From the sequence record MN850644.1: 64,000 nt of DNA. One strand, given 5' to 3'. Below, piece by piece: positions 49,809 to 54,391 of the stretch. Origin of the DNA: Escherichia phage ekra. The notes beneath the pieces were generated by a model. It worked only from the letters and a program-made list of their open reading frames with translations, was not told the origin of the DNA and made no database searches. How positions within the stretch are numbered: position 1 is the stretch's first letter; every line of letters begins with the position of its first letter. A program made the position numbers and the translations under genes.

Positions 49809-49809
49809 A

Positions 49810-50544
49810 TTATTTCTGTAATGCGCTCTTCATTTCTGGTGTTGCAATAGTGTCAATTACACCAGTTTTACAAGCATCGTCAAACCAGTCTGGTAAGATA
49901 CCTGCTAAGAACCCATTGATATTCGTTTTAAGGTACTCTGCAATAAGGGCAGCTTCTTCTTCAATCATCTGCACAACTTCATCTGCATAGGCGGTAATCT
50001 TTGAGATACCCTCATTAATCTTAATAACAGCTTGGTTAGCTAAATCAGAAACAGTATCAAGACCCTTATCAATAGCATCTTGTAAGTCACTTAACACATC
50101 GTTAACACTATCTAGTGTACTGTTAATCGTATCAATAGCTTTTTGACCATACTCTGTAGCAACACCCATAATACCACTGAATGGTGTACAACCGACTTGT
50201 TCTCCTGCTGCACCCATAACATTGGAGTATCCCTTTGCTACCTGCATACGTGATGAAAACTCATCAATAGACTTTTGACCATAGTCTGTTAGGGTCTTAG
50301 TAGTTGCTGTAGTGCTTGTCAGGCTTGTTGTAAAGCTGTTTAGAAGGACTGTTGTAAGTCCAGCAGCAACAAGCTTCTCCTCCATTGTAGGGTCTGTTAC
50401 AGAGCTAATAGAGCTTACAAGTGATGTAGAGGCAGCTACGGTTCCACCGAGAACTGCTGCACCAGTAATAAGTGGGTTAGAAAACCCTTTACCAGTTTTT
50501 AAGAGATTAAAAATCTCCTTACCTTGTTCTGTCATCTCTTTCAT
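49810..50544 (-). CDS. hypothetical protein embedded in tRNA array
   Basis: ORF 49810..50607 trimmed to ATG 50544 (MKEMTEQGKE, AAAGG RBS) so as not to overlap tRNA-Phe; Ser/Thr/Gly-rich N-terminal half, acidic helical C-terminal half. Confidence 0.4.
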   Translation of the reverse strand: MKEMTEQGKEIFNLLKTGKGFSNPLITGAAVLGGTVAASTSLVSSISSVTDPTMEEKLVAAGLTTVLLNSFTTSLTSTTATTKTLTDYGQKSIDEFSSRMQVAKGYSNVMGAAGEQVGCTPFSGIMGVATEYGQKAIDTINSTLDSVNDVLSDLQDAIDKGLDTVSDLANQAVIKINEGISKITAYADEVVQMIEEEAALIAEYLKTNINGFLAGILPDWFDDACKTGVIDTIATPEMKSALQK

Positions 50545-50560
50545 TAAGCACCTTTGAAAT

Positions 50561-50718: not shown

Positions 50719-50749
50719 ATTTAAGGACTCTCGTAAGAATCCTTAGAAG

Positions 50750-50987: not shown

Positions 50988-50995
50988 TTAAATCT

Positions 50996-51553
50996 TTACT
51001 TTCTCAGTGGATGAATAAAGAATGCCAACATAACTCTTTCCCTTGAGAATGCTCTTTCTTCTGGGACAACACTTTTTAGTTTCCATCCAACATAAATTCT
51101 CCAGTAAAACTGTTTACCAAAGACTTTAATTGACGGAATAAAAGCGAATAATCCCCAAGCATTACTGTTCCACATTAGGAGATAACCTGTCTGATTATCT
51201 TCAGGGTCAGAACTTACGTTGATATTACCTTTCCACTTAGTAACATCTTTTACATCTCTTCCTAATACATGGTAAGAGAAGTTATAAGCTTTGTTTCTCC
51301 AGAGCCATCCGACTCTCTGCATGTAGACACCCAGCTTACCAATCTTTCTAATCTTAGCCCATCTTTTAACGTGACCTTCATCACCATCAATCGGATTGTC
51401 ATAGGTCTCCATCCATCTGAATCCAAAAGGTAGATGTCCTTTCTTCTCACTGTAGAATGGAACTACGAAAGGTGCTAAGATGACTGCTAGGGTTGCTGCA
51501 AATGGTTCTAGTAAAGCTAGGAAAATCCATGAAGCATACTTCAAATATCTCAT
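50996..51553 (-). CDS. hypothetical membrane protein embedded in tRNA array
   Basis: 185-aa ORF with AAGAGG RBS; N-terminal hydrophobic helix ASWIFLALLEPFAATLAVILAPFVVPF; Trp-rich. Confidence 0.45.
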   Translation of the reverse strand: MRYLKYASWIFLALLEPFAATLAVILAPFVVPFYSEKKGHLPFGFRWMETYDNPIDGDEGHVKRWAKIRKIGKLGVYMQRVGWLWRNKAYNFSYHVLGRDVKDVTKWKGNINVSSDPEDNQTGYLLMWNSNAWGLFAFIPSIKVFGKQFYWRIYVGWKLKSVVPEERAFSRERVMLAFFIHPLRK

Positions 51554-51572
51554 CTAAATAGCCTCTTAAAAT

Positions 51573-52228: not shown

Positions 52229-52483
52229 ATTAAATCTTTTTAGAGAACTTCTAAGAACCTAAGCAACAAGGTTCCACAACAAGCTGTAATAACCTTAGAA
52301 GCCCTCTAAAAAGACCTAAAAAGGTCTTTGCATAGTCTTGTTTAATCCGGTGACTAGAACCTTTGGAGAGCTTGATATTATCTCTTCTCCATGACACCTA
52401 CTAGGTGTTTTATCAGTGTGTACGACAATACACGAGGGATACCAAAGCAACATCCGAATGAAGCTTGGCTTTAAATCTTATTA

Positions 52484-52573
52484 GGCGGTAAGTAAAGGAG
52501 TCGAACCCTCACCGTATCTCTACAGTGGCAACTGTTTTCAAGACAGTTTGGCTACCATTAGCCGCTACCTACC
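52484..52573 (-). tRNA. tRNA-Ser (anticodon TGA), long variable arm
   Basis: Anticodon stem ACTGT/ACAGT perfect, loop CTTGAAA; ~21-nt variable arm; 3-bp D stem; 3' CCA not encoded. Confidence 0.55.
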
Positions 52574-52586
52574 CCTAATAAGACTT

Positions 52587-52669
52587 TGGCATGGGACGGA
52601 GGAGTTGAACCCCTTTGAAACGGTTTTGGAGGCCGTTGCTCATGCCTTAGAGTCTTAACATCGTCCCAC
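52587..52669 (-). tRNA. tRNA-Trp (anticodon CCA), boundaries uncertain
   Basis: Anticodon stem ACGGT/GCCGT, loop CTCCAAA; T-loop AGTTGAA; element ~7 nt longer than canonical, D region ambiguous. Confidence 0.4.
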
Positions 52670-53369: not shown

Positions 53370-53827
53370 ATTAAATTATCTTTGTAGATAAGCTACCCAG
53401 ACTTGCTTAAGGTCTGTAGCGATGTGCTTTGTTGGGTTTAAATCTAGAATTTACCCTTTCACCCTTTGTGGTCGCATACTCACAGGTAAGCTTAATAACT
53501 TATCTACAAAGATAATTACCAGACCGTTGTTTATCATCTTAAGTGCTACCATTACACCAACTCGACATCTGCCGAGTGAAGGAATCGAACCTTCGCCTTT
53601 TCTTTACCGGAGAAATAGATTGTTTAAGTTTTGCTGTAAACGGTCTTCTGTAAATTTGTTGAGCCAGACCAAGTTTTAAATTTTTTCAAAATTAAATTGG
53701 CTTGAAAATATCATACGTACTTGCTGAATTTGGTCTTCTGCTCCTTTAAAGAATACTCGTAAGAACTCTTTAAGGGAGGGGCTAAATAGCCCTCTCAAAA
53801 CATCATCTTGAAATACTTATTATAATT

Positions 53828-53999: not shown

Positions 54000-54070
54000 A
54001 TTTTATTATTCTATTCAGGCTAAGGACTTGCACCTTACAAATCGGTGAGCAATCGCTTCTCTCCTAAATT

Positions 54071-54147: not shown

Positions 54148-54225
54148 TTAATACATTGCCAGACCGTGTTTTTTTCTTTTATCCGCAAAAAGTAGTTTGT
54201 TGCTGCATACGGTCTTCTGCAAAAT

Positions 54226-54302: not shown

Positions 54303-54391
54303 ATTCTTAATGACCAGACCAAATATCTTCTTTGTCCGATTTATCTTCAGATGAATAAGATTAAGTTTGCTGCAATTGGTCTTCTGTCAAA

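What the first reader, a model, noticed from the sequence alone, without database searches (positions are those of the whole stretch)
53370..53660. Structured non-tRNA region and a possible degenerate tRNA inside the array
53376..53393 (TTATCTTTGTAGATAAGC) is the reverse complement of 53505..53522 (CTTATCTACAAAGATAAT), enclosing ~110 nt that contains further hairpins (CAGAC-9nt-GTCTG). This looks like a closed, structured RNA rather than a spacer. Downstream at ~53570..53650 there is a perfect T-arm (GAAGG-AATCGAA-CCTTC) without a convincing acceptor partner or anticodon arm, so it may be a tRNA pseudogene or a tRNA-like regulatory element.
Basis: seen in the sequence. Interest (0 to 1): 0.45.

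Follow-up and report, generated by a model that had tools for sequence, protein, structure and literature searches.

The report
Phage Y-RNA-like tRNA mimic
The "broken tRNA" is most likely a conserved tRNA-mimicking small RNA, one of four related RNAs that sit next to a phage protein shaped like the Ro60 RNA-binding ring, and the same RNA signature marks the unexplained Class I RNAs of social amoebae.

Summary

Covariance models find this RNA family beside homologous genes in distant phages, always on the gene strand and often touching the gene. The stems covary strongly. Rfam's YrlA model misses E4. It weakly hits a mycobacteriophage member, which links the family to known phage YrlA RNAs.

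The family signature equals that of dictyostelid Class I RNAs. A model built only from amoeba sequences finds the phage RNAs.

The 18-bp inverted repeat is also real (second arm at 53499-53516, not 53505-53522). It closes a separate 149-nt RNA kept by compensatory changes, whose function is unknown.

No expression or binding data exist for this phage.

The parts
54721..56136 (-). 471-aa gene for a Ro60-like protein (helical TROVE-like ring plus vWA domain with an intact DxSxS MIDAS motif). Proposed protein partner of the RNAs.
54582..54702 (-). Two sigma-70-like promoters between the Ro60-like gene and tRNA-Pro. The scan finds no further promoter-like site on this strand until 53120. This suggests that tRNAs, E1-E4 and the closed RNA form one transcription unit (inferred).
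   Evidence: TTGACA-17-TAATAT at 54702-54674 and TTGACA-18-TAAAGT at 54611-54582. These are consensus matches only.
54308..54390 (-). E1, a short-form RNA: lower stem GAC/GUC, internal loop AGA/G, upper stem AGACCAA/UUGGUCU, box UUGCAGCAA.
   Evidence: R2 45.2 bits. Amoeba-only model R3 15.9 bits. Rfam Dicty_Class_I_RNA 17.8 bits, below threshold.
54153..54223 (-). E2, a short-form RNA: lower stem UGC/GCA, upper stem AGACCGU/ACGGUCU, box AUGCAGCAA.
   Evidence: R2 41 bits. R3 19.9 bits, E = 0.083. Rfam Dicty_Class_I_RNA 16.5 bits.
53658..53744 (-). E3, a short-form RNA: lower stem GAGC/GCUC, upper stem AGACCAA/UUGGUCU, box AUUCAGCAA.
   Evidence: R2 37.7 bits, E = 0.0012.
53513..53654 (-). E4, the long-form RNA with a tRNA-like module (YrlA-type topology).
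   Evidence: The MFE fold gives a terminal stem plus a four-way junction of V, T, closed acceptor and D hairpins. R1 158 bits, R2 117 bits.
53631..53653 (-). E4 5' recognition region: lower stem UUAC (53650-53653), loop AGA (53647-53649), upper stem AGACCGUU (53639-53646), box UUACAGCAA (53631-53639).
   Evidence: In the family alignment the box C and G are 89/89, and the second stem pair starts with G in 89/93.
53599..53615 (-). V hairpin UUUCU-CCGGUAA-AGAAA. It occupies the variable-arm position. Rfam and one GenBank record mistake it for an anticodon arm with anticodon GGU.
53578..53594 (-). T arm GAAGG-UUCGAUU-CCUUC.
   Evidence: The innermost T-stem pair is G-C in 40 of the 42 family members that have letters there.
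53560..53577 (-). Closed acceptor-like hairpin ACUCGGC-AGAU-GUCGAGU.
   Evidence: Three covarying versions occur in Ounavirinae: ACUCGGC/GUCGAGU, ACACG/CGUGU and ACCCUUC/GAAGGGU. All 7 pairs show double changes across the family.
53543..53559 (-). U8-G9 linker and D arm GUGU-AAUGGUA-GCAC, with the G18 G19 equivalents present.
53516..53528 (-). E4 3' closing strand AACGGUCU (53521-53528), conserved unpaired G (53520), lower stem GUAA (53516-53519).
   Evidence: The unpaired G is present in 87/93 family members.
53370..53518 (-). 149-nt closed RNA: a closing stem of about 23-24 bp (arms 53374-53395 / 53496-53517) around 3-4 hairpins. One of them, CAGAC-C-UUAAGCAA-GUCUG-G (53398-53416), has a loop that resembles the family box minus one C.
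   Evidence: Not matched by R2, R3 or Rfam.

Best explanation
The region encodes small non-coding RNAs that are most likely co-transcribed with the phage tRNAs. The 'degenerate tRNA' (E4, 53513-53654, minus strand) is a Y-RNA-like tRNA mimic. Its two ends pair to form a stem with a conserved asymmetric internal loop (5' AGA / 3' G). Directly after the 5' strand lies an almost invariant single-stranded box, UUNCAGCAA. Inside is a circularly permuted tRNA body: variable-arm-like hairpin, T arm, an acceptor stem closed by a tetraloop, U8/G9 and a D arm. So the RNA can fold into a tRNA-like elbow but has no anticodon loop and no free CCA end. Three shorter paralogues (E1-E3) keep only the stem and box. 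I infer that the stem/box module is the docking site for the phage's own Ro60-like protein, the DUF2828/DUF7788 gene 1.1 kb upstream. This would parallel the way Y RNAs dock on Ro60. By analogy with bacterial YrlA, the tRNA-like module would recruit or imitate substrates of tRNA-handling enzymes (RNase P, modification enzymes, CCA-adding enzyme, exoribonucleases) or gate the protein's cavity. The resulting RNP would act on RNA quality control or tRNA repair during infection. Shown here: the anatomy, the covariation, the Ro60-like fold, and the genomic linkage in both directions. Inferred: expression, protein binding and biological role. The adjacent 149-nt closed RNA (53370-53518) is a separate conserved structured RNA. 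Its long perfect stem looks like an RNase III-type excision or processing stem, but this is a low-confidence guess and its function is unknown.
For: Anatomy: the MFE fold of E4 gives a terminal stem plus V, T, closed-acceptor and D hairpins. E1-E4 share the stem, the box and a covarying lower stem: GAC/GUC, UGC/GCA, GAGC/GCUC, UUAC/GUAA.

Conservation: the acceptor-like stem exists in three fully compensated versions within Ounavirinae.

Forward linkage: model R2 gives 94 hits at E <= 1 in the window plus 77 loci chosen only for a homologous gene (40-48% identical in the 75 loci of the viral-contig scan). All 94 are on the gene strand and none on the other (binomial p about 3e-27 for the 89 locus hits). 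With R1, 27 of 49 same-strand hits lie within 300 nt of the gene ends, against 7.5% expected.

Covariation: 96.4% and 91.6% of cells are paired, against 35-46% when partners are slid, and 25 of 27 pairs show double changes.

Reverse linkage: loci found only by the RNA pattern carry the gene in 21 of 80 stored stretches, always on the same strand. It is the most recurrent ORF family there. A scrambled-box control gives 3 of 60 (Fisher p = 0.001). In the control loci, RNA-model hits concentrate in loci that carry the gene.

Link to known Y RNAs: a mycobacteriophage 'Ro-like RNA binding protein' is 34% identical. Directly after it R2 scores 52.9 bits and Rfam YrlA scores 37.9 bits at the same place.

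Context: in Listeria phage WIL-1 the homologous gene sits between such RNAs and an RtcB ligase gene. This resembles the Salmonella RNA repair operon that encodes RtcB and RtcA (PMC7790460; that Salmonella rsr and yrlA/yrlB lie beside it is from my own knowledge). For a related Listeria phage, highly abundant RNAs upstream of that gene were reported and tentatively called Y RNAs (PMC12282133).
Against: There are no transcript, processing or binding data for this phage or genus. Thermodynamic stability of E4 is unremarkable (z = -1.4). Rfam's YrlA model does not detect E4 even at E <= 10. The published Ro-binding motif GNCGAAN0-1G (PMC4201824) is absent. The protein has no sequence-level similarity to Ro60, so homology rests on a predicted structure. 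In 59 of 80 RNA-pattern loci no DUF2828 gene lies in the stored stretch. These stretches are short and off-centre, so this is uninformative rather than contrary, but use of the RNA without the protein is not excluded. The covariation counts come from model-fitted alignments, which lean towards the structure. E-values from the custom models are rough. DUF2828 genes also tend to sit near tRNA arrays (3 of 60 control loci), so part of the linkage could be shared context.
Confidence: 0.72

Rival explanations
1. Operon punctuation only. The stems and boxes of E1-E4 and the long stem of the closed RNA are cis-acting processing or stability signals (RNase III, RNase E, RNase P) for the polycistronic tRNA precursor, with no trans-acting RNP function.
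For: All elements lie between tRNAs, and the scan finds no promoter-like site between them on this strand. The 23-24-bp perfect duplex is the kind of substrate RNase III cuts (established knowledge). Family members often occur in tRNA arrays.
Against: In distant phages the RNAs cluster at the ends of the DUF2828 gene even where few or no tRNAs are nearby. In L072 and L084 the tRNAs lie 2 kb away while the RNAs abut the gene. An invariant single-stranded 8-nt box and a complete tRNA-like elbow are more than a cleavage site needs. The same signature occurs in free-standing, abundantly expressed amoeba RNAs (PMC7919456).
Confidence: 0.12
2. Circularly permuted tRNA gene. E4 is processed into a functional or chargeable split tRNA: RNase P cuts before GUCGAGU and the 3' end is trimmed and given CCA.
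For: The gene order is that of permuted tRNA genes. In Moogle/Mordin, L055, L084 (two copies) and L049 the acceptor loop begins with NCCA, far more often than the 1/64 expected. M. smegmatis YrlA is cut by RNase P and receives CCA (PMC4201824).
Against: No anticodon loop can form, because the ends make a long stem with the conserved box. The window's loop is AGAU with no CCA. Some family members lack the acceptor hairpin or D arm altogether. Bacteria lack the splicing endonuclease and ligase route used by algal permuted tRNAs (own knowledge).
Confidence: 0.06
3. Decayed tRNA remnants. The region holds the 3' half of one tRNA and the 5' half of the next, left over from deletions, and has no function.
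For: The sub-threshold Rfam tRNA hit of 22 bits. tRNA arrays in phages do carry pseudogenes; AYO145A annotates two.
Against: The two 'halves' pair with each other. That pairing is maintained by compensatory substitutions in three versions within the subfamily and throughout distant phages. T and D loops are conserved, and the element is embedded in a conserved stem/box shared with E1-E3.
Confidence: 0.03
4. The inverted repeat acts at the DNA level, as a protein-binding palindrome, recombination site or small mobile insertion, and not as RNA.
For: Each arm is itself nearly palindromic (TTATCT-N4-AGATAA). The segment exists as two very different alleles in otherwise 95-99% identical phages, with exchange boundaries inside the stem.
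Against: The stem continues through G-U pairs that would be A-C mismatches in DNA or on the other strand. The fold is more stable on the minus strand: -48.3 against -44.2 kcal/mol. Both alleles keep the same length, the same closing stem and the same 3' hairpin.
Confidence: 0.05
5. The 85-codon ORF on the opposite strand (53422-53679, +), annotated as a hypothetical protein in wV8 and AYO145A, is a real gene.
For: It is annotated in GenBank records and is an intact ORF in the window.
Against: It is antisense to the whole tRNA operon and translates the antisense of a T arm (..SEGIEPSP..). Its first half lies in the closed RNA, which is replaced by an unrelated-looking allele in close relatives.
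Confidence: 0.01

Closest known systems
YrlA / bacterial Y RNAs with Ro60 (Rsr) (Chen et al. 2014, PMC4201824; Rfam RF02553), including those of mycobacteriophages
   Same: The module order is the same: 5'/3' terminal stem, conserved motif near the 5' end, V hairpin, T arm, closed acceptor-like stem-loop, D arm. The RNA lies within a few kb of a Ro60-type gene on the same strand, and shorter paralogues without the tRNA module (like YrlB) lie next to it. A mycobacteriophage family member is hit by both my model (52.9 bits) and Rfam YrlA (37.9 bits).
   Different: The conserved motif is UUNCAGCAA after the stem, not GNCGAAN0-1G within it. Rfam YrlA does not detect E4. The protein belongs to Pfam DUF2828/DUF7788 and shows no sequence similarity to solved Ro60 structures. 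The RNAs are embedded in a 25-tRNA array and occur in four copies.
Thermus phage phiLo Ro60 with Yrl1/Yrl2 (PMC12135203)
   Different: The phiLo RNAs use the CGAA motif in a stem-bulge-stem and were not described as tRNA-like. The protein there is a recognisable TROVE-domain protein.
Class I RNAs of dictyostelid social amoebae (Rfam RF01414; Kjellin et al. 2021, PMC7919456)
   Same: All their defining features are shared: an (AA)G start, a short covarying stem joining the 5' and 3' ends, the motif (CC)UUACAGCAA directly after the 5' strand, a variable A-rich interior, and a CUG(U) end. A model built only from 34 amoeba RNAs gives 24 hits at E <= 0.1 in the phage loci, all on the gene strand, top score 34.6 bits with an exact CCUUACAGCAA. 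Some amoeba members contain a T arm plus a closed hairpin, for example asu_can_20.
   Different: Class I RNAs are eukaryotic, expressed from their own DUSE promoters, and 42-65 nt long. Their only proven direct binder is an RRM protein (Rnp1A). They were reported as unique to Dictyostelia. The window's own copies score below Rfam's threshold (12.8-17.8 against 41.5 bits). Whether amoebae have a DUF2828 protein was not checked.
Circularly permuted tRNA genes of red and green algae (own knowledge: Soma et al. 2007)
   Same: The 3' half (T arm and 3' acceptor strand) lies upstream of the 5' half (5' acceptor strand and D arm).
   Different: Those genes yield normal tRNAs through a circular intermediate. 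Here no anticodon arm exists, and the termini form a conserved protein-binding-type stem.

Membership tests
Canonical tRNA | Cloverleaf in the standard 5'-to-3' order, detected by ARAGORN or by Rfam RF00005 at or above 29 bits | tested here: not met
   ARAGORN makes no call in 53370-53827. Rfam tRNA gives 22-22.6 bits, partial, with the V hairpin misread as an anticodon arm.
Canonical tRNA | Anticodon arm with a 7-nt loop, and a free 3' NCCA end | tested here: not met
   The position of the anticodon stem leads into the terminal stem. The acceptor stem is closed by AGAU.
YrlA-type Y RNA | Module order: terminal stem, V, T arm, closed acceptor-like stem-loop, D arm | tested here: met
   MFE fold. 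Covariation in every helix.
YrlA-type Y RNA | Encoded within about 4 kb of a Ro60 orthologue, on the same strand | tested here: met
   E4 lies 1.1 kb downstream of a gene with a predicted Ro60 fold. All hits in 77 related loci are on the gene strand. Caveat: the protein is a structural homologue, not a sequence-detectable homologue.
YrlA-type Y RNA | GNCGAAN0-1G motif near the 5' end | tested here: not met
   The 5' region reads UUUACAGAAGACCGUUUACAGCAA. The conserved box is UUNCAGCAA.
YrlA-type Y RNA | Match to Rfam RF02553 at the gathering score (69 bits) | tested here: not met
   No YrlA hit on the window at E <= 10. A mycobacteriophage relative scores 37.9 bits.
YrlA-type Y RNA | Bound by Ro60, carries tRNA-type modifications, substrate of RNase P | not testable with these tools
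   Requires RIP, EMSA, modification mapping and RNase P assays.
Dictyostelid Class I RNA | Short covarying stem joining the 5' and 3' ends, with a conserved G start and CUG(U) end | tested here: met
   Family consensus AAAG...CUG, with G in 89/93, C in 87/92 and the trailing G in 87/93. The stem pairs all show double changes.
Dictyostelid Class I RNA | 11-nt motif CCUUACAGCAA adjacent to the 5' stem strand | tested here: met
   E4 has UUUACAGCAA (9 of the 11 positions, UUACAGCAA, identical). Distant phage members have the exact 11-mer, for example L021 5410-5470.
Dictyostelid Class I RNA | Score above the family threshold (Rfam 41.5 bits; 25 bits in Kjellin et al.) | tested here: inconclusive
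   The window copies score 12.8-17.8 bits with Rfam and 15.9-19.9 bits with my amoeba-only model. Ten phage hits elsewhere score at least 25 bits with my amoeba-only model, which is not the model Kjellin et al. used.
Dictyostelid Class I RNA | DUSE promoter about 60 nt upstream; dictyostelid host | tested here: not met
   This is a phage operon with sigma-70-like promoters.
Ro60 / TROVE protein (for the upstream gene) | Ring of helical repeats plus a C-terminal vWA domain with a MIDAS motif | tested here: met
Ro60 / TROVE protein (for the upstream gene) | Sequence membership of the Pfam TROVE family, or similarity to solved Ro60 sequences | tested here: not met
   Pfam gives only DUF2828 and DUF7788. 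phmmer and a profile search against PDB sequences find nothing.
Two-piece (permuted) tmRNA | ARAGORN or Rfam tmRNA_permuted match, and a tag reading frame | tested here: not met
   No tmRNA call. There is no tmRNA_permuted hit at E4.

The most novel reading that the evidence does not exclude
The phage RNAs E1-E4 and the dictyostelid Class I RNAs may be members of one RNA class whose stem/CAGCAA module is the recognition element for DUF2828-type Ro60-like proteins. If so, Class I RNAs are the 'Y RNAs' of a second, unrecognised branch of the Ro60 family that is present in phages and eukaryotes. Their unknown function, open since their discovery around 2004, could then be tested as an RNP acting in RNA surveillance or tRNA repair. 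The tRNA-like long forms, which occur in some phages and in a few amoeba genes, would represent either the ancestral state or a modular add-on.
Probability: 0.4. Interest if true: 0.9.

Novelty: new variant of a known kind. Interest (0 to 1): 0.78.

Why it matters
Felix-O1-like phages are classic, easily manipulated coliphages and Salmonella phages. A Ro60-like protein with four candidate RNA partners at the head of their tRNA array offers a tractable system for asking what Ro/Y-RNA particles do in a virus, for example tRNA or rRNA quality control, or countering host nucleases that target tRNAs.

The RNA family is large. It is absent from Rfam, and it is currently mis-annotated as an intron-containing tRNA-Thr or as an antisense ORF.

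Its signature is the same as that of dictyostelid Class I RNAs, which were reported to be unique to social amoebae and whose mechanism is unknown. This suggests a concrete protein partner to test.

Tried and rejected
1. Rfam at gathering thresholds over the whole window gives only tRNAs. Rfam at permissive thresholds over the array gives no YrlA, tmRNA or ribozyme hit on the finding.

2. Sequence searches of the protein and of its 42-sequence profile against PDB sequences found nothing. Only the fold comparison worked.

3. Thermodynamic z-scores for E1-E4 are not significant (-0.9 to -1.4), so folding energy was dropped as an argument for them.

4. A generic stem-plus-box descriptor was too noisy, at about one false hit per 10 kb. 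It was replaced by covariance models.

5. One strict-descriptor hit (L049 1012-1067) was a junction of two tandem tRNAs and was discarded. Two weak R2 hits on tRNA junctions were discarded likewise.

6. The apparent 335-bp 'insertion' in GEP101 and S19cd (two-piece BLAST hits) was only a second partial match and led nowhere.

7. The antisense 85-aa ORF was rejected.

8. Literature searches for DUF2828, PF11443, DUF7788 and Felixounavirus Y RNAs found nothing relevant.

9. I could not find out whether Dictyostelium encodes a DUF2828 protein. The afdb50 fold library was unavailable, the protein search lists only the best 120 hits, which were all phage-like, and Avesson et al. 2011 is not held.

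10. The closed 149-nt RNA matched none of R2, R3 or Rfam, so its class remains open.
Full report
**Setting.** The window matches Felixounavirus (Felix-O1-like) phages of E. coli and Salmonella at up to 99.8% identity. ARAGORN finds 25 tRNA genes, all on the minus strand, between 49636 and 54555. Rfam at curated thresholds finds nothing else. The finding lies in the longest tRNA-free gap in this part of the array, 53370-53827, between tRNA-Asp and tRNA-Lys. All features below are read on the minus strand.

**Check of the observation.** The inverted repeat is real. Its second arm is at 53499-53516, not 53505-53522. The perfect 18-mers are at 53375-53392 and 53499-53516, and they extend to 22 nt at 95%. 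Perfect 18-mer inverted repeats within 400 nt are about 20-fold rarer in shuffles. The segment folds with z = -5.3 on the minus strand and z = -4.3 on the plus strand. The inner hairpin is at 53398-53416 and the T arm is at 53578-53594. The claim that the T arm has no acceptor partner is wrong. The partner lies 3' of it on the transcribed strand: GAAGG-UUCGAUU-CCUUC | ACUCGGC-AGAU-GUCGAGU | UG | GUGU-AAUGGUA-GCAC. This permuted order explains why ARAGORN is silent and why the Rfam tRNA model reaches only 22 bits.

**Anatomy of E4 and its paralogues.** The exact 9-mer CAGAAGACC occurs four times on the minus strand inside the array. Each copy opens an element that ends in GGUCUGG. These are E1 54308-54390, E2 54153-54223, E3 53658-53744 and E4 53513-53654. 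All four share these parts:
- a lower stem that covaries (GAC/GUC, UGC/GCA, GAGC/GCUC, UUAC/GUAA);
- an asymmetric loop (AGA on the 5' side, G on the 3' side);
- an upper stem AGACCnn/nnGGUCU whose last pairs covary (AA/UU against GU/AC);
- a box UNCAGCAA directly after the 5' strand.

Only E4 carries a large insert. Its minimum-free-energy fold is a four-way junction of a V hairpin, a T arm, a 7-bp closed acceptor-like hairpin and a D arm. This is the architecture described for bacterial YrlA Y RNAs (PMC4201824).

**Conservation close by.** The 389-nt query spanning the closed RNA, E4 and E3 (53372-53760) is 95-99% identical in 175 of the 251 phage records that match it. In the related genera Suspvirus and Mooglevirus the T and D arms are unchanged. 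The acceptor-like stem, however, appears in three fully compensated versions: ACUCGGC/GUCGAGU, ACACG/CGUGU and ACCCUUC/GAAGGGU. That rules out a decaying pseudogene.

**Linkage, forward direction.** I fetched 75 viral contigs chosen only because they encode a homologue 40-48% identical to the protein.
- A strict hand-written descriptor (T arm + closed hairpin + D arm) found 11 true elements on the gene strand and one junk hit on the other strand.
- Model R1, built from Ounavirinae E4 only, found 52 hits at E <= 10, 49 of them on the gene strand. Of those 49, 27 lie within 300 nt of the gene ends, against 7.5% expected (p about 4e-18).
- Model R2, rebuilt from the hits, found 94 hits at E <= 1 in the window plus 77 loci, all on the gene strand (the 89 locus hits give p about 3e-27). 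They cover about 48 loci.
- In the window R2 recovers E4 (117 bits), E1 (45), E2 (41) and E3 (38).

Base-pair counts on the two alignments give 96.4% and 91.6% paired cells, against 35-46% when partners are slid, and 25 of 27 pairs show double changes. These alignments are fitted to the model, so the numbers lean towards the structure.

The family consensus is AA-[A G r n y n n]-U U W C A G C A A ... [n n r n y C U]-G-W U A A. The box C and G are each 89/89, the second stem pair is G-C in about 95%, and the unpaired 3' G is 87/93. About 40% of members carry a T arm and 20-27 carry the full tRNA-like module. The rest are short forms like E1-E3.

**Linkage, reverse direction and controls.** R2 gave 102 hits at E < 0.001 across the 80 stored loci. 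A DUF2828 gene lies within the stored stretch in 21 of the 80, always on the RNA's strand, and it is the most recurrent ORF family there (20 loci; the next has 10). A scrambled box with the same composition gave 60 stretches, of which 3 carry the gene (Fisher p = 0.001). Within those control loci, the R2 and R3 hits concentrate in the loci that have the gene or are the same phage type. The control also shows that these genes tend to sit near tRNA genes, so part of the linkage is shared context. In 59 of the 80 pattern loci the gene is not in the short, off-centre stored stretch, and that cannot be interpreted.

**Relation to known Y RNAs.** Chen et al. (2014) reported YrlA-like RNAs beside Ro60 genes in 254 bacteria and 22 phages, mycobacteriophages among them. 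Later work lists Caulobacter phage CcrColossus, Bacillus phage G and Thermus phage phiLo. In mycobacteriophage Samty, R2 scores 52.9 bits directly after the Ro-like gene, with the box ACAGCAA, and Rfam YrlA scores 37.9 bits (threshold 69) at the same place. So the window's E4 belongs to the same broad kind as the phage YrlA RNAs. It is nevertheless a divergent branch. Rfam YrlA does not detect it at all, the published GNCGAAN0-1G motif is absent, and the partner protein falls in a different Pfam family.

I found no paper on Felixounavirus or DUF2828 Y RNAs. Two papers note Ro60-like ORFs in a Vibrio jumbo phage and in a Listeria P100-like phage. The Listeria paper speculates that abundant RNAs upstream might be Y RNAs. 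In the related Listeria phage WIL-1, I find short-form family members just upstream of the gene and an RtcB ligase gene 1.3 kb downstream. This resembles the Salmonella RNA repair operon that encodes RtcB and RtcA (PMC7790460). That rsr and the yrlA/yrlB genes lie beside that operon is from my own knowledge.

**An unexpected relative.** At permissive thresholds Rfam's Dicty_Class_I_RNA model aligns end to end with E4, E1 and E2, at 12.8, 17.8 and 16.5 bits. Each is individually insignificant. Class I RNAs of dictyostelid amoebae are defined by:
- an (AA)G start;
- a 6-bp covarying stem joining the ends;
- the 11-nt motif CCUUACAGCAA next to the 5' strand;
- a variable interior;
- a CUGU end.

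Their mechanism is unknown, and they were reported as unique to Dictyostelia (PMC7919456). This is the phage family's consensus feature for feature.

To test the match independently, I built model R3 from 34 published amoeba sequences only. In the phage loci and the window it gives 24 hits at E <= 0.1, all on the gene strand. By my count from the two tables, 15 of these lie within 300 nt of the DUF2828 gene. The top score is 34.6 bits, and several hits contain the exact 11-mer, for example L021 5410-5470: GGUU-CCUUACAGCAA...GGAACCUG. The window's E2 and E1 score 19.9 and 15.9 bits. In 526 kb of control loci, the hits at E <= 0.1 again fall in gene-bearing loci or in the same phage type (L213, L267), apart from one weak hit in L219.

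Some amoeba Class I RNAs even contain a T arm followed by a closed hairpin (asu_can_20) or a T-arm-like hairpin (ppa_can_99). An Arabidopsis 'outgroup candidate' in that paper's supplement has the same stem, motif and CUG layout, and plants have DUF2828 proteins (papers). I could not check whether Dictyostelium has one.

**Mechanism proposed.**
- Shown: the RNA architecture, its covariation, the Ro60-like fold of the neighbouring protein, and two-way genomic linkage.
- Inferred: the stem with its A-U/G-C base, the unpaired G and the single-stranded CAGCAA box form the docking site for the Ro60-like protein. The tRNA-like module of E4 engages tRNA-recognising enzymes or gates the ring, as proposed for YrlA. 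E1-E3 are YrlB-like short partners.

In several relatives (Moogle/Mordin, L055, L084, L049) the acceptor loop starts with NCCA. This suggests RNase P cleavage and a CCA end in some lineages, as seen for M. smegmatis YrlA. The window's loop (AGAU) lacks it. Recurrent neighbours in metagenomic loci include an AAA_33 kinase, phosphoesterases, PTH2 and an RNaseH-like protein. These fit an RNA-repair or tRNA-care theme but prove nothing.

**The closed 149-nt RNA (53370-53518).** It is separate from E4 and overlaps it by only 2-3 nt. Relatives carry one of two alleles that are hard to align internally. Both alleles keep the length, a closing stem of about 23 bp (five double compensations, plus G-U pairs valid only on the minus strand) and a 3' hairpin whose loop, (C)UUAAGCAA or CUUUAGCAA, resembles the family box minus one C. 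It matches no model. I regard it as a conserved structured RNA of unknown function. The best guess is an RNase III-type excision stem around a stable RNA, possibly another ligand of the same protein. Confidence in that guess is low.

**Annotation consequences.** One GenBank record calls a 131-nt 'tRNA-Thr (GGT)' across E4 and E3. Others annotate an antisense 85-aa ORF. Both are most likely artefacts.

**Verdict.** The element is not a dead tRNA. It is a divergent, unannotated member of the Y-RNA/YrlA kind, paired with a divergent Ro60-like protein. I rate it a new variant of a known kind. The Class I link is the most novel reading and remains to be tested.

Noticed in passing
window 52593-52667 (-): The spacer between tRNA-Arg and tRNA-Ser holds a sub-threshold tRNA-Sec-like match (23 bits), with a T-arm-like GGGGUUCAACUCCUC and a ...CGUCCCAUGCCA end. 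It may be an odd or decayed tRNA that neither ARAGORN nor Rfam calls.
   Followed up: no
window 52473-52485 and 52574-52586: A 13-nt inverted repeat (92% complementary) brackets tRNA-Ser(UGA) exactly, like a processing stem.
   Followed up: no
window 53743-53773 (-) and 50719-50749 (-): A hairpin with the loop UUCUUACGAG recurs in the array. Similar CUUUAAAGA-type hairpins precede tRNA-Arg and tRNA-Leu. A G+C-rich hairpin GAGAGGGCUAUUUAGCCCCUC (53776-53796) follows tRNA-Asp.
   Followed up: no
window 54000-54070 (-): The tRNA-Asn/tRNA-Tyr spacer contains a T-arm-like AAGGUGCAAGUCCUU. It is conserved in the Suspvirus EcSzw_1.
   Followed up: no
window 53422-53679 (+); GenBank OQ174506 (REP7) and KR014248 (AYO145A): Public records annotate this region either as a 131-nt 'tRNA-Thr GGT' or as an antisense 85-aa hypothetical protein. 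Both are probably artefacts of the tRNA-like RNA.
   Followed up: partly
L274 (Listeria phage WIL-1) 2429-2980, 3620-3773, 6808-8019: A ROOL RNA match (87 bits, just below the threshold of 99), five tRNAs and two Class-I-like RNAs lie upstream of the DUF2828 gene. An RtcB 'tRNA splicing ligase' lies 1.3 kb downstream.
   Followed up: partly
L092-L171 (viral contigs found by the RNA pattern): Recurrent protein neighbours of the RNA family are an AAA_33 P-loop kinase, a calcineurin-like phosphoesterase, a DSP-type phosphatase, PTH2 peptidyl-tRNA hydrolase, an RNaseH_like (PF04308) protein and a homing-endonuclease-like ORF (GIY-YIG by eye; not scanned against Pfam). Together they suggest an RNA end-healing or tRNA-care neighbourhood. 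PF04308 also directly follows the DUF2828 gene in Vibrio phage phi-pp2.
   Followed up: partly
Supplement of PMC7919456 (files 48 and 56): Amoeba Class I RNAs asu_can_20 and ppa_can_99 contain GGUUCGAUCC/GGUUCGAAUCC T-arm-like hairpins. The Arabidopsis outgroup candidate ath_can_1 (CM score 40) reads GUUUUC-AUUACAGCAA...GAAAAC-UG.
   Followed up: partly
window 49809-50560 and 50988-51572 (-): Two protein-coding ORFs are interspersed within the tRNA array. Their functions were not examined.
   Followed up: no
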